Source: Escherichia coli
GTDB lineage: Bacteria > Pseudomonadota > Gammaproteobacteria > Enterobacterales > Enterobacteriaceae
Assembly (NCBI RefSeq): GCF_003334405.1
Contig: NZ_QOWM01000002.1
Direction: 5' to 3' (one strand)
DNA: 64,000 nucleotides
A model generated the notes under the pieces. It ran no database searches. It had not been told where the DNA came from and saw only the letters and a list, made by a program, of their open reading frames with translations. A program made the translations under genes and the position numbers. How positions within the stretch are numbered: the first letter of the stretch is position 1; every line of letters starts with the position of its first letter. Positions 13,216 through 63,904 of the stretch are shown here, in pieces.

Positions 13216-13292
<77 letters not shown>

Positions 13293-14633: not shown

Positions 14634-14816
14634 AGGGTGAGGGGTAACCTCACATCCTGATTATTGACTAAGTGCGCGTTGTTCATGCCGGATGCGGCGT
14701 GAACGCCTTATCCGGCCTACAAATCATGCAAATCCAAAATATTGCAGGAGTTATGTAGGCCTGATAAGCGTAGCGCATCAGGCATTTATGCGTTTAGGGT
14801 GAGGGATAACCTCGCC
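14634..14816. repeat. BIME: two inverted REP elements flanked by 21-bp direct repeats
   Basis: REP gccggatgcggcgtgaacgccttatccggcctac (14688..14720) and inverted REP gtaggcctgataagcgtagcgcatcaggc (14755..14783). Flanking repeats agggtgaggggtaacctcaca (14634..14654) and agggtgagggataacctcgcc (14796..14816). Confidence 0.7.
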
Positions 14817-17777: not shown

Positions 17778-17983
17778 AAAAAAAAGCACCGCAATTAGGC
17801 GGTGCTACATTAATCACTATGGACAGACAGGGTAAATGTACAGGAAGTGAAAAAAGGTAGCTTTGCTACCATGGTCTGAATCGCAGACCAATTGCAAACA
17901 CAACAACACAACATCACAACCGTAAGCCAAAAGTTCACCAGAACACGCATTCCGATAAAACTTTTCGTTCCGGCTCAGGAAGT
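17778..17983 (-). ncRNA. gcvB: GcvB small regulatory RNA
   Basis: The reverse complement matches the gcvB sequence as I recall it, from 5' ACTTCCTGAGCCGGAACG to the terminator hairpin (gcaccgcctaattgcggtgc) and U-tract. It is divergent from gcvA, with a TATAGT -10 just upstream on the minus strand. Confidence 0.85.
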
Positions 17984-36144: not shown

Positions 36145-36520
36145 TTCTATCTTCGTCGACAGGGAGTCAGACAACGAAGTGAACATCAGGATGATGACAC
36201 TTCTGCAGGACACACCAGGATGGTGTTTCAGGGAAAGGCTTCTGGATGAAGCGAAGAGGATGACGCAGGACGCGTTAAAGGACACCTCCAGGATGGAGAA
36301 TGAGAACCGGTCAGGATGATTCGGTGGGTCAGGAAGGCCAGGGACACTTCAGGATGAAGTATCACATCGGGGTGGTGTGAGCAGGAAGCAATAGTTCAGG
36401 ATGAACGATTGGCCGCAAGGCCAGAGGAAAAGTTGTCAAGGATGAGCAGGGAGCAACAAAAGTAGCTGGAATGCTGCGAAACGAACCGGGAGCGCTGTGA
36501 ATACAGTGCTCCCTTTTTTT
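36145..36520 (+). ncRNA. csrB: CsrB, CsrA-sequestering small RNA
   Basis: About 370 nt with roughly 20 reiterated GGA motifs (caggatg, aggaca, cagggag). Ends in a terminator hairpin gggagcgctg..cagtgctccc plus ttttttt (36488..36520). The 5' end is approximate. Confidence 0.85.
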
Positions 36521-36565
36521 ATTCCTGCTATCCTTCGCGGCAGTTTTTCTTATTGAGGTTGCTTT

Positions 36566-45678: not shown

Positions 45679-46980
45679 ATGGCGCAATTCTACTCTGCAA
45701 AACGACGCACGACGACGCGTCAGATCATAACCGTTTCAGTCAACGACCTCGACTCTTTTGGTCAGGGCGTGGCGCGACATAACGGCAAAACGCTATTTAT
45801 CCCCGGATTATTGCCGCAGGAAAACGCGGAAGTTACTGTTACTGAAGATAAAAAACAGTATGCCCGCGCTAAAGTCGTACGCCGGTTAAGCGATAGCCCG
45901 GAACGCGAAACGCCACGCTGTCCTCATTTTGGCGTATGCGGTGGCTGTCAGCAACAACACGCCAGCGTGGATTTACAGCAGCGAAGCAAAAGTGCGGCAC
46001 TCGCCCGATTAATGAAACACGATGTCTCTGAAGTGATCGCCGATGTTCCCTGGGGCTATCGCCGTCGCGCGCGTTTAAGTCTGAACTACTTACCGAAAAC
46101 ACAGCAACTTCAGATGGGGTTTCGCAAAGCGGGCTCCAGTGACATTGTCGACGTCAAACAATGCCCCATTTTAGCGCCCCAACTTGAAGCATTGCTGCCC
46201 AAAGTCAGGGCATGTCTGGGCAGCTTACAAGCTATGCGCCATCTTGGTCATGTTGAACTGGTACAGGCAACCAGCGGCACGCTGATGATTTTGCGCCATA
46301 CCGCACCGCTAAGTTCGGCAGATCGCGAAAAACTGGAACGCTTTTCGCATTCTGAAGGCCTGGATCTGTATCTCGCCCCCGATAGTGAGATACTCGAAAC
46401 CGTCTCTGGTGAGATGCCCTGGTATGACTCAAACGGGTTGCGCTTAACTTTTAGCCCGCGCGATTTTATTCAGGTCAATGCGGGTGTGAACCAAAAAATG
46501 GTAGCGCGTGCGTTGGAATGGCTGGATGTGCAACCTGAAGATCGCGTACTGGATCTGTTCTGCGGTATGGGCAACTTTACACTGCCATTGGCGACACAAG
46601 CTGCCAGTGTGGTCGGTGTAGAAGGTGTTCCGGCGCTGGTGGAAAAAGGCCAGCAGAATGCGCGTCTTAATGGCTTACAGAATGTGACGTTTTATCACGA
46701 AAATCTTGAAGAAGATGTCACAAAGCAGCCGTGGGCGAAAAACGGCTTCGATAAAGTGTTGCTGGACCCGGCGCGAGCAGGTGCCGCAGGTGTTATGCAG
46801 CAAATTATAAAACTGGAACCTATTCGTATAGTTTATGTATCCTGTAACCCTGCAACGCTGGCTCGGGATAGCGAAGCGTTATTAAAAGCAGGATATACCA
46901 TTGCGCGACTGGCGATGCTGGATATGTTCCCACACACGGGACATCTGGAATCGATGGTACTTTTCTCGCGCGTTAAATAG
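45679..46980 (+). CDS. rlmD: 23S rRNA (uracil1939-C5)-methyltransferase RlmD
   Basis: 433-aa ORF with an Fe-S cysteine cluster ([11 protein letters not shown]) and a SAM-methyltransferase region ([14 protein letters not shown]). Confidence 0.9.
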
Positions 46981-47027
46981 TTGCGATTTGCCGATTTCGG
47001 CAGGTCTGGTCCCTAAAGGAGAGGACG

Positions 47028-49262
47028 ATGGTTGCGGTAAGAAGTGCACATATCAATAAGGCTGGTGAATTTGATCCGGAAAAATGGATCGCAAGTCTGG
47101 GTATTACCAGCCAGAAGTCGTGTGAGTGCTTAGCCGAAACCTGGGCGTATTGTCTGCAACAGACGCAGGGGCATCCGGATGCCAGTCTGTTATTGTGGCG
47201 TGGTGTTGAGATGGTGGAGATCCTCTCGACATTAAGTATGGACATTGACACGCTGCGGGCGGCGCTGCTTTTCCCTCTGGCGGATGCCAACGTAGTCAGC
47301 GAAGATGTGCTGCGTGAGAGCGTCGGTAAGTCGGTCGTTAACCTTATTCACGGCGTGCGTGATATGGCGGCGATCCGCCAGCTGAAAGCGACGCACACTG
47401 ATTCTGTTTCCTCCGAACAGGTCGATAACGTTCGCCGGATGTTATTGGCGATGGTCGATGATTTTCGCTGCGTAGTCATCAAACTGGCGGAGCGTATTGC
47501 TCATCTGCGCGAAGTAAAAGATGCGCCGGAAGATGAACGTGTACTGGCGGCAAAAGAGTGTACCAACATCTACGCACCGCTGGCTAACCGTCTCGGAATC
47601 GGACAACTGAAATGGGAACTGGAAGATTACTGCTTCCGTTACCTCCATCCAACCGAATACAAACGAATTGCCAAACTGCTGCATGAACGGCGTCTCGACC
47701 GCGAACACTACATCGAAGAGTTCGTTGGTCATCTGCGCGCTGAGATGAAAGCTGAAGGCGTTAAAGCGGAAGTGTATGGTCGTCCGAAACACATCTACAG
47801 CATCTGGCGTAAAATGCAGAAAAAGAACCTCGCCTTTGATGAGCTGTTTGATGTGCGTGCGGTACGTATTGTCGCCGAGCGTTTACAGGATTGCTATGCC
47901 GCACTGGGGATAGTGCACACTCACTATCGCCACCTGCCGGATGAGTTTGACGATTACGTCGCTAACCCGAAACCAAACGGTTATCAGTCTATTCATACCG
48001 TGGTTCTGGGGCCGGGTGGAAAAACCGTTGAGATCCAAATCCGCACCAAACAGATGCATGAAGATGCAGAGTTGGGTGTTGCTGCGCACTGGAAATATAA
48101 AGAGGGCGCGGCTGCTGGCGGCGCACGTTCGGGACATGAAGACCGGATTGCCTGGCTGCGTAAACTGATTGCGTGGCAGGAAGAGATGGCTGATTCCGGC
48201 GAAATGCTCGACGAAGTACGTAGTCAGGTCTTTGACGACCGGGTGTACGTCTTTACGCCGAAAGGTGATGTCGTTGATTTGCCTGCGGGATCAACGCCGC
48301 TGGACTTCGCTTACCACATCCACAGTGATGTCGGACACCGCTGCATCGGGGCAAAAATTGGCGGGCGCATTGTGCCGTTCACCTACCAGCTGCAGATGGG
48401 CGACCAGATTGAAATTATCACCCAGAAACAGCCGAACCCCAGCCGTGACTGGTTAAACCCAAACCTCGGTTACGTCACAACCAGCCGTGGGCGTTCGAAA
48501 ATTCACGCCTGGTTCCGTAAACAGGACCGTGACAAAAACATTCTGGCTGGGCGGCAAATCCTTGACGACGAGCTGGAACATCTGGGGATCAGCCTGAAAG
48601 AAGCAGAAAAACATCTGCTGCCGCGTTACAACTTCAATGATGTCGACGAGTTGCTGGCGGCGATTGGTGGCGGGGATATCCGTCTCAATCAGATGGTGAA
48701 CTTCCTGCAATCGCAATTTAATAAGCCGAGTGCCGAAGAGCAGGACGCCGCCGCGCTGAAGCAACTTCAGCAAAAAAGCTACACGCCGCAAAACCGCAGT
48801 AAAGATAACGGTCGCGTGGTAGTCGAAGGTGTTGGCAACCTGATGCACCACATCGCGCGCTGCTGCCAGCCGATTCCTGGAGATGAGATTGTCGGCTTCA
48901 TTACCCAGGGGCGCGGTATTTCAGTACACCGCGCCGATTGCGAACAACTGGCGGAACTGCGCTCCCATGCGCCAGAACGCATTGTTGACGCGGTATGGGG
49001 TGAGAGCTACTCCGCCGGATATTCGCTGGTGGTCCGCGTGGTAGCTAATGATCGTAGTGGGTTGTTACGTGATATCACGACCATTCTCGCCAACGAGAAG
49101 GTGAACGTGCTTGGCGTTGCCAGCCGTAGCGACACCAAACAGCAACTGGCGACCATCGACATGACCATTGAGATTTACAACCTGCAAGTGCTGGGGCGCG
49201 TGCTGGGTAAACTCAACCAGGTGCCGGATGTTATCGACGCGCGTCGGTTGCACGGGAGTTAG
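47028..49262 (+). CDS. relA: GTP pyrophosphokinase RelA, (p)ppGpp synthetase I
   Basis: 744-aa ORF with RelA/SpoT synthetase domain and TGS/ACT C-terminal regions. Confidence 0.93.
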   Translation: MVAVRSAHINKAGEFDPEKWIASLGITSQKSCECLAETWAYCLQQTQGHPDASLLLWRGVEMVEILSTLSMDIDTLRAALLFPLADANVVSEDVLRESVGKSVVNLIHGVRDMAAIRQLKATHTDSVSSEQVDNVRRMLLAMVDDFRCVVIKLAERIAHLREVKDAPEDERVLAAKECTNIYAPLANRLGIGQLKWELEDYCFRYLHPTEYKRIAKLLHERRLDREHYIEEFVGHLRAEMKAEGVKAEVYGRPKHIYSIWRKMQKKNLAFDELFDVRAVRIVAERLQDCYAALGIVHTHYRHLPDEFDDYVANPKPNGYQSIHTVVLGPGGKTVEIQIRTKQMHEDAELGVAAHWKYKEGAAAGGARSGHEDRIAWLRKLIAWQEEMADSGEMLDEVRSQVFDDRVYVFTPKGDVVDLPAGSTPLDFAYHIHSDVGHRCIGAKIGGRIVPFTYQLQMGDQIEIITQKQPNPSRDWLNPNLGYVTTSRGRSKIHAWFRKQDRDKNILAGRQILDDELEHLGISLKEAEKHLLPRYNFNDVDELLAAIGGGDIRLNQMVNFLQSQFNKPSAEEQDAAALKQLQQKSYTPQNRSKDNGRVVVEGVGNLMHHIARCCQPIPGDEIVGFITQGRGISVHRADCEQLAELRSHAPERIVDAVWGESYSAGYSLVVRVVANDRSGLLRDITTILANEKVNVLGVASRSDTKQQLATIDMTIEIYNLQVLGRVLGKLNQVPDVIDARRLHGS

Positions 49263-49275
49263 GCCGAAATTTGCT

Positions 49276-49320
49276 CGTATCTACAATGTAGATTGATATA
49301 TACTGTATCTACATATGATA
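49276..49320. promoter_or_regulatory. mazEF promoter/operator with overlapping palindromes
   Basis: Palindromic atctacaatgtagat and related atctacat half-sites lie 20-65 bp upstream of the mazE ATG. Confidence 0.55.
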
Positions 49321-49339
49321 GCGGTTTGAGGAAAGGGTT

Positions 49340-49588
49340 ATGATCCACAGTAGCGTAAAGCGTTGGGGAAATTCACCGGCGGTGCGGATCCCGGCTACGT
49401 TAATGCAGGCGCTCAATCTGAATATTGATGATGAAGTGAAGATTGACCTGGTGGATGGCAAATTAATTATTGAGCCAGTGCGTAAAGAGCCCGTATTTAC
49501 GCTTGCTGAACTGGTCAACGACATCACGCCGGAAAACCTCCACGAGAATATCGACTGGGGAGAGCCGAAAGATAAGGAAGTCTGGTAA
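49340..49588 (+). CDS. mazE: Antitoxin MazE (type II toxin-antitoxin)
   Basis: 82-aa ORF beginning [25 protein letters not shown]. Its stop overlaps the mazF ATG. Confidence 0.92.
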
Positions 49589-49923
49589 TGGTAAGCCGAT
49601 ACGTACCCGATATGGGCGATCTGATTTGGGTTGATTTTGACCCGACAAAAGGTAGCGAGCAAGCTGGACATCGTCCAGCTGTTGTCCTGAGTCCTTTCAT
49701 GTACAACAACAAAACAGGTATGTGTCTGTGTGTTCCTTGTACAACGCAATCAAAAGGATATCCGTTCGAAGTTGTTTTATCCGGTCAGGAACGTGATGGC
49801 GTAGCGTTAGCTGATCAGGTAAAAAGTATCGCCTGGCGGGCAAGAGGAGCAACGAAGAAAGGAACAGTTGCCCCAGAGGAATTACAACTCATTAAAGCCA
49901 AAATTAACGTACTGATTGGGTAG
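49588..49923 (+). CDS. mazF: Toxin MazF, ACA-specific mRNA interferase
   Basis: 111-aa ORF beginning [35 protein letters not shown]. Confidence 0.93.
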   Translation: MVSRYVPDMGDLIWVDFDPTKGSEQAGHRPAVVLSPFMYNNKTGMCLCVPCTTQSKGYPFEVVLSGQERDGVALADQVKSIAWRARGATKKGTVAPEELQLIKAKINVLIG

Positions 49924-49993
49924 TGTTACTAACTCACTTCTATTCTGGTCACAGGTTTCCACCTGACAGACCCGCAATTTTCAGGACAATTCA

Positions 49994-50785
49994 ATGAATC
50001 AAATCGACCGTTTGCTCACTATTATGCAGCGCCTGCGCGATCCGGAAAACGGCTGCCCGTGGGATAAAGAGCAGACATTTGCCACCATTGCGCCTTACAC
50101 CCTTGAAGAAACCTACGAAGTGCTGGACGCCATCGCCCGTGAAGATTTTGACGATCTTCGCGGTGAACTGGGCGATCTGCTATTCCAGGTGGTGTTTTAC
50201 GCGCAAATGGCTCAGGAAGAAGGGCGCTTTGACTTTAATGATATTTGCGCTGCTATTAGCGATAAATTAGAGCGTCGCCATCCGCATGTTTTTGCTGATA
50301 GTTCTGCCGAAAACAGTAGTGAAGTGCTTGCCCGTTGGGAGCAAATCAAAACCGAAGAGCGCGCGCAGAAAGCGCAGCATTCGGCGCTGGACGATATTCC
50401 TCGTAGTTTACCGGCTTTAATGCGTGCGCAAAAAATCCAGAAACGTTGCGCCAACGTTGGCTTCGATTGGACGACGCTTGGTCCGGTAGTCGATAAAGTC
50501 TACGAAGAGATCGACGAGGTGATGTACGAAGCGCGGCAGGCTGTTGTCGACCAGGCTAAACTGGAGGAGGAAATGGGGGACCTGCTGTTTGCCACGGTTA
50601 ATCTGGCTCGCCATTTAGGGACGAAAGCAGAAATCGCATTGCAAAAAGCGAACGAAAAATTCGAGCGTCGTTTTCGCGAAGTGGAGCGTATTGTTGCCGC
50701 GCGTGGACTGGAAATGACAGGTGTTGACCTCGAAACAATGGAAGAAGTCTGGCAACAGGTAAAACGGCAGGAAATTGATCTCTAA
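49994..50785 (+). CDS. mazG: Nucleoside triphosphate pyrophosphohydrolase MazG
   Basis: 263-aa ORF recognised as MazG. Confidence 0.9.
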   Translation: MNQIDRLLTIMQRLRDPENGCPWDKEQTFATIAPYTLEETYEVLDAIAREDFDDLRGELGDLLFQVVFYAQMAQEEGRFDFNDICAAISDKLERRHPHVFADSSAENSSEVLARWEQIKTEERAQKAQHSALDDIPRSLPALMRAQKIQKRCANVGFDWTTLGPVVDKVYEEIDEVMYEARQAVVDQAKLEEEMGDLLFATVNLARHLGTKAEIALQKANEKFERRFREVERIVAARGLEMTGVDLETMEEVWQQVKRQEIDL

Positions 50786-50997
50786 GGGAATTACGCGGTC
50801 AAGCGCCATTTGTGTCATTTTTTAAATGACAAGCGCTTGATTTGCGTCAAAAACATTTACCCCAAAGGGGCTATTTTCTCACTCCTGATTTCAATAGTGC
50901 GCTGGCGAAGAGGAGGGATAATGAAAGTTTGTGGCACAGGTCATGTTCGGGTATACTGCTTTCCCGTCTTGGTTATTCCATCGTCTTTTCAACCTAA

Positions 50998-52650
<1,653 letters not shown>

Positions 52651-56271: not shown

Positions 56272-56544
56272 GTGTTCCCCGCGCCAGCGGGGATAAACCG
56301 GCAAAAACCGGGCAATCGCAAAAAGGCGTAATGTGTTCCCCGCGCCAGCGGGGATAAACCTGTGTTTGCGGCATTAACGCTCACCAGCATTTCGTGTTCC
56401 CCGCGCCAGCGGGGATAAACCGAGCAGATACACGGCTTTGTATTCCGTGCGCCCGTGTTCCCCGCGCCAGCGGGGATAAACCGGAGCCTGACGAGACTAC
56501 TGAGGCCGTTCTGTCGAGTTCCCCGCGCCAGCGGGGATAAACCA
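56272..56544 (+). CRISPR. Type I-E CRISPR array, 5 repeats of 29 nt and 4 spacers of 32 nt (61-bp period)
   Basis: Repeats start at 56272, 56333, 56394, 56455 and 56516, with consensus gtgttccccgcgccagcggggataaaccg. The last repeat reads gagttccccgcgccagcggggataaacca. Spacers: 56301..56332 gcaaaaaccgggcaatcgcaaaaaggcgtaat; 56362..56393 gtgtttgcggcattaacgctcaccagcatttc; 56423..56454 agcagatacacggctttgtattccgtgcgccc; 56484..56515 gagcctgacgagactactgaggccgttctgtc. Confidence 0.95.
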
Positions 56545-56998: not shown

Positions 56999-57136
56999 AT
57001 ATTCCTTGTAAAAACAGGGATAAACCGAACTAGTTAAAGTTTTTATTATGTTCCCTGCATCAGCGGGGATAAACCGGACTTGTTATCATTTTTTAAGTTG
57101 TCGAACTTATGTTCCCCGCGTCAGCGGGGATAACCA
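56999..57136 (+). CRISPR. Degenerate CRISPR remnant: one truncated and two mutated I-E-like repeats
   Basis: Partial repeat ending cagggataaaccg at 57027; atgttccctgcatcagcggggataaaccg at 57048..57076; a 32-nt spacer at 57077..57108; atgttccccgcgtcagcggggataacca at 57109..57136. Same strand and 61-bp spacing as the main array. Confidence 0.6.
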
Positions 57137-57182
57137 TTCAGGTATGTTCAGGCCGGGCAGTTTCCCGCCCGGCCTTCCTCAC

Positions 57183-58439
57183 TTACGCATTCGACCAGCT
57201 CTGGATCGAATCCACATTCCCCAATTCCCCATGCATCACTTCATACGATTTTTTCAGGATCACATCAGTATGTTTGGTTAGGTCTTTGAAAATGCCTTTA
57301 TTCATCGCGTCGTAGCGTTTGGCATTGCTCTCAATCGGTATAAAGATATCTTTCACGCGAACCATGTTATCGACAGCCGTTGCGTAATCCGGGTATAGCC
57401 CCAGACCTACCGCTGTATTAATCGCTGCCCCCAGGCTTGCACAACCGTTAATGGCGTTACGTCGTGCCGGAAGGTTGAACACGTCGGCAAAAATCTGCAT
57501 AAACAGATCGCTGTTCGAACCGCCGCCAGTAATGATCACATGCTTCGCAAAGTGATTCATTTCATTACACATATTGTCGTAATTGTTCTTCAGCGTCAGC
57601 GCCACGCTTTCCAGTATCGAACGATATATCCATGCGTAATCCATGCTGGAATCAAAGCCGATCATAATCCCGCGTTTGTACGGTTCCCACGGATTGGTCA
57701 GCCAGTCCAGCACCGTCATCAGACCATTACAGCCTGGCGGCACACAAGAAGCTTTTTTGTTGAGTAAATCTTCCGGTGAAAGATCCTGCGCCCTGGCATC
57801 CTGAATTAACGACTCGCCTAGCATGTCGCGCAGCCAGCTCACCGTCCACATGCCTTTGCGAATACCGTAACCTTCATACAGCAATGTTTGCGGAATAGAA
57901 GACATAATCGGCCAGTACGCTACTGGATCTTTCGGCAGTGCTTTGCCGTTCATCATCAATGCGATGTAAGTGCCAAGAGAAATTACCGCCGTTTCATCAT
58001 CCAGTAATCCGGCCCCCAGAGCTTCTACCGGTTTATCACTGGTGGTACAAACAACCGGCAGTCCTGCCGGGAAATGTGTCGCCAGTGCGGCTTGTGGTGT
58101 GATATGTCCGAGGACGGTGCCAGGCATTTGCACATCAAACAGCATATGACGGGGGATATTAAACTTATCCATTACCGCAGCATCTTCGCTCCATGCCCAG
58201 CTCTTATAATCCACCGGCCACTGACCAAAATAGTTGGCGATATTGTCTTTAAACTCGCCGGTTAACCGCCCGCCGGAAAGATTTTTGCTGCCGGGGATTT
58301 CAGCGCGTTCCAGTAACAAAACGGATAAACCCGCTCGCGCGCAGCGTAACGCGCAAGCGGTGCCTGCAATACCGGCACCAATAATAATAATGTCGCAGTC
58401 GTCTTCCATGTCATGCCCCAGATATCCAGAACACAACAC
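57183..58439 (-). CDS. Hybrid ORF: FAD-binding Rossmann N-terminus (about 50 aa) fused to the C-terminal ~365 aa of an FGGY sugar kinase; probable deletion-fusion product
   Basis: 418-aa ORF. The N-terminus DIIIIGAGIAGTACALRCARAGLSVLLLER is a classic GxGxxG dinucleotide-binding fold. The rest is FGGY-like (VISLGTYIALM ... HVIITGGGSNSDLFMQIFADVFNLPARR) and lacks the N-terminal ATP-binding motif of that family. Alternative start at the ATG at 58409. Confidence 0.6.
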   Translation of the reverse strand: MLCSGYLGHDMEDDCDIIIIGAGIAGTACALRCARAGLSVLLLERAEIPGSKNLSGGRLTGEFKDNIANYFGQWPVDYKSWAWSEDAAVMDKFNIPRHMLFDVQMPGTVLGHITPQAALATHFPAGLPVVCTTSDKPVEALGAGLLDDETAVISLGTYIALMMNGKALPKDPVAYWPIMSSIPQTLLYEGYGIRKGMWTVSWLRDMLGESLIQDARAQDLSPEDLLNKKASCVPPGCNGLMTVLDWLTNPWEPYKRGIMIGFDSSMDYAWIYRSILESVALTLKNNYDNMCNEMNHFAKHVIITGGGSNSDLFMQIFADVFNLPARRNAINGCASLGAAINTAVGLGLYPDYATAVDNMVRVKDIFIPIESNAKRYDAMNKGIFKDLTKHTDVILKKSYEVMHGELGNVDSIQSWSNA

Positions 58440-63487: not shown

Positions 63488-63751
63488 ATATTGCCGGATA
63501 AATTAAACGCCTCTGTCAGAAATGATGGGGGCGTTTTTATTTTGCGAGCAGTATTCCTGATTTTAAACGTGAACGCCGCTGGAAGAATTATCAGGTATAG
63601 AATGGCGTCGGGTGCTTGAGGCTGTCTGGCGTTAAGCATTCGCGAGGTTCCAGATGGACAAAAGCCCCAGGCGATATTTCTATCAACCTGAGGCTTACGT
63701 TCGAACCCAAACAATTCGAATGTTAGTCTCTTCTTTGCAGGGAGGCAAGAC

Positions 63752-63904
63752 ATGCTGACAAAATATGCCCTTGTGGCAATCATAGTGCTGTGTTTTACAG
63801 TACTGGGATTCACGCTGATGGTAGGCGACTCGTTGTGTGAGTTGAGTATCAGAGAACGTGGTATGGAGTTTAAGGCAGTTCTCGCTTACGAATCGAAGAA
63901 GTAG
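63752..63904 (+). CDS. Hok/Gef-family type I toxin (50 aa), HokE-like
   Basis: Not in the ORF track because it is under 60 aa. I translated it by hand: [51 protein letters not shown] ggagg SD sits 7-11 nt upstream. It has one transmembrane helix and the conserved SLCE...R and AYES motifs of the Hok family. Confidence 0.7.

What the first reader, a model, noticed from the sequence alone, without database searches (positions are those of the whole stretch)
49263..49923. mazEF toxin-antitoxin module with a palindromic operator, between relA and mazG
mazE and mazF are intact and translationally coupled (overlap at 49588). The 77-bp gap after relA contains overlapping palindromes (atctacaatgtagat and repeats of atctacat) consistent with an autoregulatory operator. 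This is a well-described system. It is listed because it is the only type II toxin-antitoxin pair in the window and its intactness is informative about the strain.
Basis: partly seen in the sequence, partly recalled or inferred. Interest (0 to 1): 0.2.

Follow-up and report, generated by a model that had tools for sequence, protein, structure and literature searches.

The report
Ordinary E. coli mazEF toxin-antitoxin locus
This is the textbook mazE-mazF toxin-antitoxin gene pair of Escherichia coli with its known operator, base-for-base identical to laboratory strain K-12, so it is real and intact but entirely ordinary.

Summary
mazE is 49340-49588 and mazF is 49588-49923. They share one base (TAATG). 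The gap after the relA stop codon is 77 bp. It carries ATCTACA (49279-85), TGTAGAT (49287-93) and ATCTACA (49307-13), an arrangement seen in 19 of 20,000 shuffles.

Both proteins are 100% identical to the solved E. coli MazE and MazF structures. Window 46679-51179 is identical to MG1655 at every base. Window 49274-49323 matches 50 of the 51 bases of the published 'cab' operator oligonucleotide that was shown to bind three MazE dimers.

- The ATATAT core of operator site 'a' (49296-49301).
- The annotated antisense RNA aMEF on the minus strand (49628 to 49229).
- The cassette is a presence/absence polymorphism. 4416 of 5426 complete E. coli genomes carry it. The rest have an uninterrupted relA-mazG junction. 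Homology breaks at the last base of the relA stop codon and resumes 37 nt before mazG.

The polymorphism is already published. The allele is shared by many strains, so it says little about strain identity.

Verdict: already known, with no deviation from the reference. Interest is very low.

The parts
47028..49262 (+). relA (GTP diphosphokinase, 744 aa). It is the upstream gene of the relA-mazE-mazF-mazG transcription unit. Its stop codon TAG is at 49260-49262.
   Evidence: ORF. NCBIfam equivalog NF008124 scores 1678 bits against a cut-off of 728. Identical to MG1655 b2784 from 46679 onward.
49263..49339 (+). 77-bp relA-mazE intergenic region. It holds the mazEF promoters (P2 and P3 in the literature), the operator and the mazE Shine-Dalgarno sequence (GAGGA at 49328-49332).
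   Evidence: Sequence. Identical to MG1655. The best sigma-70-like pair I found is TTGATA (49293) - 15 nt - TATGAT (49314), which is inference only. The tool's own promoter scan did not recover a convincing promoter.
49274..49323 (.). mazEF operator 'cab', with three MazE-dimer sites. By the published oligonucleotides these are site c at 49277-49295, site a at 49293-49306 and site b at 49298-49316.
   Evidence: Exact 50-nt match to the oligonucleotide 5'-CTCGTATCTACAATGTAGATTGATATATACTGTATCTACATATGATAGCG-3' of Zorzini et al. 2015 (PMC4333400). Columns 49277-49319 are invariant in two E. coli alleles that are 98% identical overall.
49279..49285 (.). Upstream arm ATCTACA of the alternating palindrome.
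   Evidence: the repeat finder I2 and D1.
49286..49293 (.). Middle arm (A)TGTAGAT. It is complementary to either the upstream or the downstream arm.
   Evidence: the repeat finder I1 and I2. The 'alternating palindrome' is described in PMC4803016.
49296..49301 (.). ATATAT perfect palindrome, the core of operator site 'a' used for the MazE-DNA structural model (PDB 2MRU).
   Evidence: the repeat finder I4. PMC4333400.
49307..49314 (.). Downstream arm ATCTACA(T) of the alternating palindrome.
   Evidence: the repeat finder I1 and D1.
49340..49588 (+). mazE, the antitoxin (82 aa). It has an N-terminal AbrB/SpoVT-type DNA-binding domain and a C-terminal MazF-binding tail. The DNA-contact residues K7, R8, W9, N11 and R16 are present.
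   Evidence: 100% identity over 82 of 82 residues to PDB 1MVF_D and 1UB4_C. NCBIfam NF007312 scores 196 bits against a cut-off of 113. Pfam PF04014, E 4.6e-14. The residue roles come from PMC4333400.
49588..49923 (+). mazF, the ACA-specific endoribonuclease toxin (111 aa). Its ATG overlaps the mazE stop codon by 1 nt. AGGA lies at 49575-49578. E24, R29 and T52 are present.
   Evidence: 100% identity over 111 of 111 residues to PDB 3NFC_A and 5CK9_A. NCBIfam NF007386 scores 227 bits against a cut-off of 120. Pfam PF02452, E 6.4e-24. There are 9 ACA sites in mazF and 2 in mazE, as published.
49229..49628 (-). aMEF antisense RNA (MG1655 ameF, b4844), mapped by sequence identity. Its 5' end lies inside mazF codon 14. 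It runs antisense across all of mazE, the operator and promoter, and the last 34 nt of relA.
   Evidence: The MG1655 annotation places this ncRNA at 2911051-2911450. The window is identical there. Function is described in PMC8749433.
49924..49993 (+). mazF-mazG spacer (70 bp). Bases 49924-49956 belong to the cassette. Bases 49957-49993 are shared with genomes that lack mazEF.
   Evidence: Alignment to the empty-site alleles L002 and L003. No plus-strand terminator-like site lies between relA and mazG.
49994..50785 (+). mazG (nucleoside triphosphate pyrophosphohydrolase, 263 aa), the downstream gene of the unit.
   Evidence: NCBIfam TIGR00444 scores 419 bits and NF007113 scores 370 bits. Matches MG1655 b2781.

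Best explanation
This is the canonical chromosomal mazEF (chpA) type II toxin-antitoxin cassette of Escherichia coli, in the K-12 allele. It sits between relA and mazG.

Shown here by sequence:
- Both genes are intact and identical to the experimentally characterised proteins.
- The operator is identical to the DNA that was shown to bind MazE.
- The antisense aMEF region is identical to MG1655.

Established in the literature for this exact sequence:
- MazF dimers cleave single-stranded RNA at ACA.
- A MazE dimer neutralises two MazF dimers through its disordered C-terminal tails.
- MazE is labile to the ClpAP and Lon proteases, so a halt in synthesis frees MazF.
- MazE, and more strongly the MazE-MazF complex, binds three adjacent sites (c, a, b) that overlap the two promoters P2 and P3 and represses transcription. 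Excess MazF relieves binding.
- Fis activates transcription from a site upstream.
- MazF also cuts its own mRNA, which has 9 ACA sites in mazF and 2 in mazE.
- The antisense RNA aMEF raises mazEF expression.

Inferred:
- Translational coupling, from the TAATG overlap.
- Read-through from relA and on into mazG, because no plus-strand terminator-like site was found.

Biological role: this is contested in the literature. I lean towards a horizontally acquired accessory cassette. It causes autoregulated, reversible growth arrest when MazE is depleted, may contribute to defence against phage, and is dispensable for the relA-mazG operon.
For: - Protein identity: 100% to PDB chains for MazF (3NFC, 5CK9, 1UB4) and MazE (1MVF, 1UB4).
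- Family models: NCBIfam equivalogs score well above their cut-offs. Pfam finds PemK_toxin and MazE_antitoxin.
- DNA identity: window 46679-51179 has 0 mismatches to MG1655 2909500-2914000.
- Annotation: RefSeq labels matching loci relA | mazE | mazF | mazG, and 4416 of 5426 genomes hold at least 80% of the query.
- Operator: exact 50-nt match to the published oligonucleotide. The arrangement is rare in shuffles, 19 of 20,000. The operator core is invariant in 98%-identical alleles.
- ACA counts match Nikolic et al. 2018.
- aMEF is annotated in MG1655 over the identical sequence.
- No plus-strand terminator-like site lies in 49000-50100.
Against: Nothing in the sequence argues against the identification. 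The limits are these:
- No activity, binding or expression was or could be measured here.
- The simple sigma-70 scan did not recover P2 or P3. My -35/-10 candidates are inference. The original promoter paper (Marianovsky et al. 2001) is not in the held library.
- The operator strand folded as single-stranded DNA is no more stable than shuffles (z = -0.57). The palindromes are therefore better read as symmetric protein-binding sites than as an extruded structure.
- The physiological role of mazEF is disputed.
Confidence: 0.97

Rival explanations
1. The genes are present but the module is inert in this strain, as a decayed or silenced toxin-antitoxin remnant.
For: Chromosomal toxin-antitoxin loci often decay. 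A hok/sok remnant lies elsewhere in the same window. Nothing at this locus itself supports decay.
Against: Both ORFs are full length and 100% identical to active reference proteins. The promoter/operator, both Shine-Dalgarno sequences and the aMEF region are base-identical to MG1655, where the system is expressed and active.
Confidence: 0.01
2. The palindromes in the 77-bp gap are chance features of AT-rich promoter DNA, or a relA terminator, and not an operator.
For: A single 7-nt non-overlapping inverted repeat is common in shuffles of the gap (2882 of 20,000). The strand folds no better than shuffles.
Against: The three-arm arrangement is rare, 19 of 20,000 shuffles. The sequence is identical to DNA shown by ITC, EMSA and NMR to bind MazE specifically. 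It is invariant in diverged alleles while flanking bases vary. No terminator-like site was found on the plus strand.
Confidence: 0.01
3. Concerning its role, mazEF is a host stress-response or programmed-cell-death module functionally tied to relA and ppGpp, and not a selfish or accessory insertion.
For: It lies inside the relA-mazG unit. The literature reports ppGpp-dependent regulation and death under many stresses.
Against: About 1010 of 5426 complete E. coli genomes lack the cassette and have an undisturbed relA-mazG junction. The review PMC7167474 reports that deleting mazEF causes no fitness defect under stress, that there is no functional link to the neighbouring cistrons, and that the PCD and leaderless-mRNA claims are contested. 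Related mazEF pairs sit on conjugative plasmids.
Confidence: 0.25

Closest known systems
E. coli K-12 MG1655 mazE-mazF (chpAI-chpAK; b2783-b2782) with its 'alternating palindrome' operator and the antisense RNA aMEF (b4844)
   Same: Everything tested is the same. The DNA is identical over 4.5 kb including relA and mazG, and part of rlmD and pyrG. The proteins are identical. The operator is identical. Gene order is identical.
   Different: Nothing differs at this locus. The surrounding window is not MG1655. It is 99.9% identical and differs in three places: one initiator tRNA-Met gene instead of three, a shorter CRISPR-2 array, and a 9.5-kb ygcN-ygcE deletion.
E. coli chpBIK (ChpS/ChpB), the chromosomal paralogue
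   Same: Same PemK/MazF toxin fold, the same AbrB-type antitoxin and the same antitoxin-first operon layout.
   Different: It is a distinct equivalog. The window proteins score 55 bits (cut-off 129) against the ChpB model and 34.6 bits (cut-off 101) against the ChpS model. It also sits at a different chromosomal location.
Plasmid Kis/Kid (parD of R1), PemI/PemK (R100), and plasmid-borne mazEF of Klebsiella, Providencia and Proteus
   Same: Homologous toxin: Kid (PDB 1M1F) matches at E 7.6e-9. Plasmid mazEF pairs are annotated with the same family names. Autoregulation by the antitoxin-toxin complex works the same way.
   Different: These are only distantly related, at 65-69% nucleotide identity over about half of the cassette. 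They are plasmid-borne with a post-segregational killing role, and they have different operators.
Empty-site relA-mazG allele of E. coli (for example UTI89-type strains)
   Same: relA and mazG are the same, as are the last 37 nt before mazG.
   Different: A filler of about 58 bp carrying the hairpin GCTGGATA-N12-TATCCAGC replaces the 694-bp cassette. The relA stop codon is TAA instead of TAG.

Membership tests
MazF/PemK endoribonuclease toxins (E. coli MazF equivalog) | Full-length PemK/MazF domain that scores above the curated equivalog threshold. | tested here: met
   NF007386 scores 227.4 bits against a cut-off of 120, covering residues 1-111 of 111. Pfam PF02452, E 6.4e-24.
MazF/PemK endoribonuclease toxins (E. 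coli MazF equivalog) | Active-site and functionally required residues are intact (E24, R29, T52 in E. coli numbering). | tested here: met
   111 of 111 residues are identical to wild-type E. coli MazF in PDB 3NFC and 5CK9. The sequence shows E24, R29 and T52. E24A is the inactive mutant used in PMC5888573. The conserved Arg/Thr pair is essential in homologues. Assigning this role to R29 and T52 in E. coli MazF rests on my own knowledge of the structural literature.
MazF/PemK endoribonuclease toxins (E. coli MazF equivalog) | ACA-specific cleavage of single-stranded RNA. | not testable with these tools
   Published for the identical protein. Not measurable here.
MazE antitoxins (AbrB/SpoVT/MazE fold) | N-terminal swapped-hairpin DNA-binding domain and a C-terminal toxin-binding tail, scoring above the equivalog threshold. 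| tested here: met
   NF007312 scores 196.2 bits against a cut-off of 113, covering residues 1-82 of 82. Pfam PF04014 covers residues 6-51. 82 of 82 residues are identical to PDB 1MVF and 1UB4. K7, R8, W9, N11 and R16 are present.
Type II toxin-antitoxin operon | Two small adjacent co-oriented genes, antitoxin first, abutting or overlapping. | tested here: met
   mazE is 49340-49588 and mazF is 49588-49923, with a 1-nt overlap in TAATG.
Type II toxin-antitoxin operon | Palindromic operator at the promoter, bound by the antitoxin or the complex (autoregulation). | tested here: met
   The sequence criterion is met. There is an exact 50-nt match to the experimentally bound 'cab' operator and the repeat architecture is confirmed. 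Binding itself was not measured here.
Type II toxin-antitoxin operon | Proteolytically unstable antitoxin (degraded by ClpAP or Lon) and a stable toxin. | not testable with these tools
   From the literature only.
E. coli chromosomal mazEF (chpA) locus | Position between relA and mazG. | tested here: met
   relA ends at 49262 and mazG starts at 49994. RefSeq genomes show the same order.
ChpBIK paralogue (considered) | Scores above the ChpB and ChpS equivalog thresholds. | tested here: not met
   55.2 bits against 129, and 34.6 bits against 101.

The most novel reading that the evidence does not exclude
The only slightly new angle left open concerns the cassette junctions. Homology to empty-site genomes breaks at the third base of the relA stop codon (TAG versus TAA) and resumes 37 nt before mazG. 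The cassette replaces a filler of about 58 bp that carries a hairpin. These junctions might record a specific mechanism or target by which the mazEF cassette entered, or was excised from, the relA-mazG operon. Which state is ancestral across E. coli phylogroups could be resolved from these junctions.
Probability: 0.05. Interest if true: 0.25.

Novelty: already known. Interest (0 to 1): 0.04.

Why it matters
It matters very little beyond annotation. The result confirms that this E. coli strain carries the wild-type K-12-type mazEF allele, with an intact operator and the aMEF region. Published K-12 results on MazF activity and autoregulation should therefore transfer to it directly. The presence/absence polymorphism is a usable but coarse strain marker: about 81% of complete E. 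coli genomes carry the cassette. It also supports the published view that mazEF is an accessory insertion and not an integral part of the stringent-response operon.

Tried and rejected
- I looked for any difference from the reference that could make the locus unusual. There were 0 mismatches over 4.5 kb to MG1655.
- I tested whether the palindromes could be chance. A single 7-nt inverted repeat is common in shuffles, but the three-arm arrangement is not. My first statistic was flawed because it counted overlapping palindromes. I replaced it.
- I tested whether the 'alternating palindrome' is a notably stable single-strand structure. It is not (z = -0.57).
- I tried to place promoters P2 and P3. 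The consensus scan gave no convincing site in the gap. A looser scan gave TTGATA-15-TATGAT, which is only a guess. The primary paper (PubMed 11071896) is not in the held library.
- I searched plasmids and phages for a recent mobile source of the cassette. Plasmids gave only distant relatives at 65-69% identity, plus one 4.8-Mb chromosome filed as a plasmid. Phages gave nothing.
- I tried to identify the strain from the unusual ygcN-ygcE junction. Only one RefSeq complete genome covers it, and that genome has an IS1 at the junction.

Full report
**1. Observation**

The sequence and the ORF list show these boundaries:
- relA (744 aa) ends with TAG at 49260-49262.
- An 82-aa ATG ORF lies at 49340-49588.
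- A 111-aa ATG ORF lies at 49588-49923.
- mazG starts at 49994.

The relA-mazE gap (49263-49339) is exactly 77 bp. The two small ORFs share base 49588 (TAATG). GAGGA lies 7 nt before the mazE ATG, and AGGA (49575-49578) lies 9 nt before the mazF ATG.

- ATCTACA / TGTAGAT at 49279-85 and 49287-93, 1 nt apart.
- ATGTAGAT / ATCTACAT at 49286-93 and 49307-14, 13 nt apart.
- A 9-nt direct repeat GTATCTACA at 49277 and 49305.
- The short palindromes ATATAT (49296-301) and CATATG (49312-17).

Three of the five ATCTACA occurrences in the whole 64-kb window (both strands) fall inside these 35 bp. Two direct copies plus one inverted non-overlapping 7-mer copy were seen in 19 of 20,000 dinucleotide shuffles of the gap. 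An earlier statistic wrongly counted overlapping palindromes and was discarded.

**2. What it is**

- MazF is identical at 111 of 111 residues to E. coli MazF in PDB 3NFC and 5CK9.
- MazE is identical at 82 of 82 residues to 1MVF and 1UB4.
- The NCBIfam equivalogs for MazE, MazF, MazG and RelA all score far above their cut-offs. The ChpS and ChpB paralogue models fall far below theirs.
- Pfam finds PemK_toxin and MazE_antitoxin.
- Window 46679-51179 is identical at every base to the reverse complement of MG1655 2909500-2914000. That stretch is annotated there as rlmD, relA, mazE, mazF, mazG and pyrG, plus the antisense ncRNA ameF.
- No frameshift or substitution exists. E24, R29 and T52 of MazF are present, as are K7, R8, W9, N11 and R16 of MazE.

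**3. Operator**

Zorzini et al. 2015 (PMC4333400) measured MazE binding to a 'cab' oligonucleotide, CTCGTATCTACAATGTAGATTGATATATACTGTATCTACATATGATAGCGT, and to sub-sites c, a and b. The first 50 bases match window 49274-49323 exactly, and this is the only match in the window.

By those oligonucleotides the sites are:
- site c: 49277-49295
- site a: 49293-49306
- site b: 49298-49316

That core is the element used for the MazE-DNA structural model.

In two E. coli alleles that are 98% identical overall, positions 49277-49319 are invariant. Substitutions fall just outside, at 49270, 49274 and 49320.

Folded as single-stranded DNA, the operator is no more stable than shuffles (z = -0.57). I therefore read the symmetry as binding sites for MazE dimers and not as an extruded hairpin.

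I could not place P2 and P3 independently. The consensus scan found nothing convincing in the gap. A looser scan gave TTGATA (49293) - 15 nt - TATGAT (49314), which is inference only. The primary paper is not in the held library.

**4. How it works**

The following is established for this exact sequence in the literature, not tested here:
- A MazE dimer bridges two MazF dimers and inactivates them.
- MazE is degraded by ClpAP and Lon.
- MazE, and more strongly the MazE-MazF complex, represses P2 and P3 through the operator. A large excess of MazF abolishes binding.
- Fis activates transcription from upstream.
- MazF also cleaves its own message. I count 2 ACA sites in mazE and 9 in mazF, the numbers given by Nikolic et al. 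2018.
- The minus strand carries aMEF, mapped by identity to 49628 -> 49229. This RNA raises mazEF expression.

No plus-strand terminator-like site lies between relA and mazG. This fits the described relA-mazEFG co-transcription. Translational coupling is inferred from the overlap only.

**5. Population context**

- All 5426 complete E. coli genomes match the relA end of the query.
- 4416 of them hold at least 80% of the 801-bp query. Many are 100% identical.
- The rest have relA followed directly by mazG after 95 bp.

Aligning occupied and empty alleles shows where homology stops and restarts. It stops at the third base of the relA stop codon and resumes at 49957, 37 nt before mazG. The cassette is therefore about 694 bp. 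The empty allele has a filler of about 58 bp with a hairpin in its place.

This polymorphism and its interpretation are already published in PMC7167474: mazEF is an insertion into an otherwise functional relA-mazG operon. Distant mazEF relatives (65-69% nucleotide identity) sit on conjugative plasmids of Klebsiella, Providencia and Proteus. None were found in phages.

**6. Verdict**

The finding is real, correctly interpreted and already known in every respect. It is identical to the reference. 'Informative about the strain' is only weakly true. Interest is 0.04.

**7. The rest of the window**

The window is not MG1655. It is 99.9% identical over 99-56543, with these differences:
- One initiator tRNA-Met gene instead of three.
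- A CRISPR-2 array that lacks two of the K-12 spacers.
- A 9.5-kb deletion that fuses ygcN to ygcE.
- A sok (hokX/sokX) match near cysH.

Noticed in passing
window 13216-13292 (minus strand): There is only one initiator tRNA-Met gene where MG1655 has three in tandem (metZ, metW, metV). The window is 220 bp shorter here, and the top-matching RefSeq genomes carry two copies.
   Followed up: partly
window 56272-56544 and 57048-57137: This is the type I-E CRISPR-2 array between queE and ygcE, with 5 repeats and 4 spacers. All four spacers are shared with MG1655, which has two further spacers. Two degenerate repeats lie about 500 bp further on.
   Followed up: partly
window 57183-58439 (minus strand); junction near 58263-58268: A 9.5-kb deletion relative to MG1655 (2892803 to 2902289) fuses the 5' end of ygcN to the 3' part of ygcE and creates a chimeric 418-aa ORF. 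Only one RefSeq complete genome (NZ_AP027818.1) covers this junction region, and it has an IS1 there.
   Followed up: partly
window 63610-63767 (+): An Rfam sok antitoxin (RF01794) match of 113 bits lies next to cysH. It corresponds to the hokX/sokX type I toxin-antitoxin remnant of K-12. Homology to MG1655 ends at 63754, just before where K-12 has cas3.
   Followed up: no
L002:1564-1658 and L003:2564-2658 (empty relA-mazG alleles): Genomes without mazEF carry a filler of about 58 bp with a perfect 8-bp-stem hairpin (GCTGGATA-N12-TATCCAGC) directly after a TAA relA stop codon. Its role is unknown.
   Followed up: no
window 49963-49990 (+): A sigma-70-like match (CTGACA-16-GACAAT) lies just upstream of mazG, in the part of the spacer shared with empty-site genomes. 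It is a possible mazG-proximal promoter, but the evidence is a consensus match only.
   Followed up: no
window 36164-36523 (+), 17778-17983 (-), 14720-14762 (+): Rfam finds the CsrB and GcvB sRNAs at the positions expected from K-12, plus a short ES036 (CssrF) match.
   Followed up: no
plasmid collection hit H36 (NZ_OL790696.1): A 4.8-Mb E. coli record in the plasmid collection carries the cassette at 99.4% identity. From its size it appears to be a chromosome filed as a plasmid.
   Followed up: no
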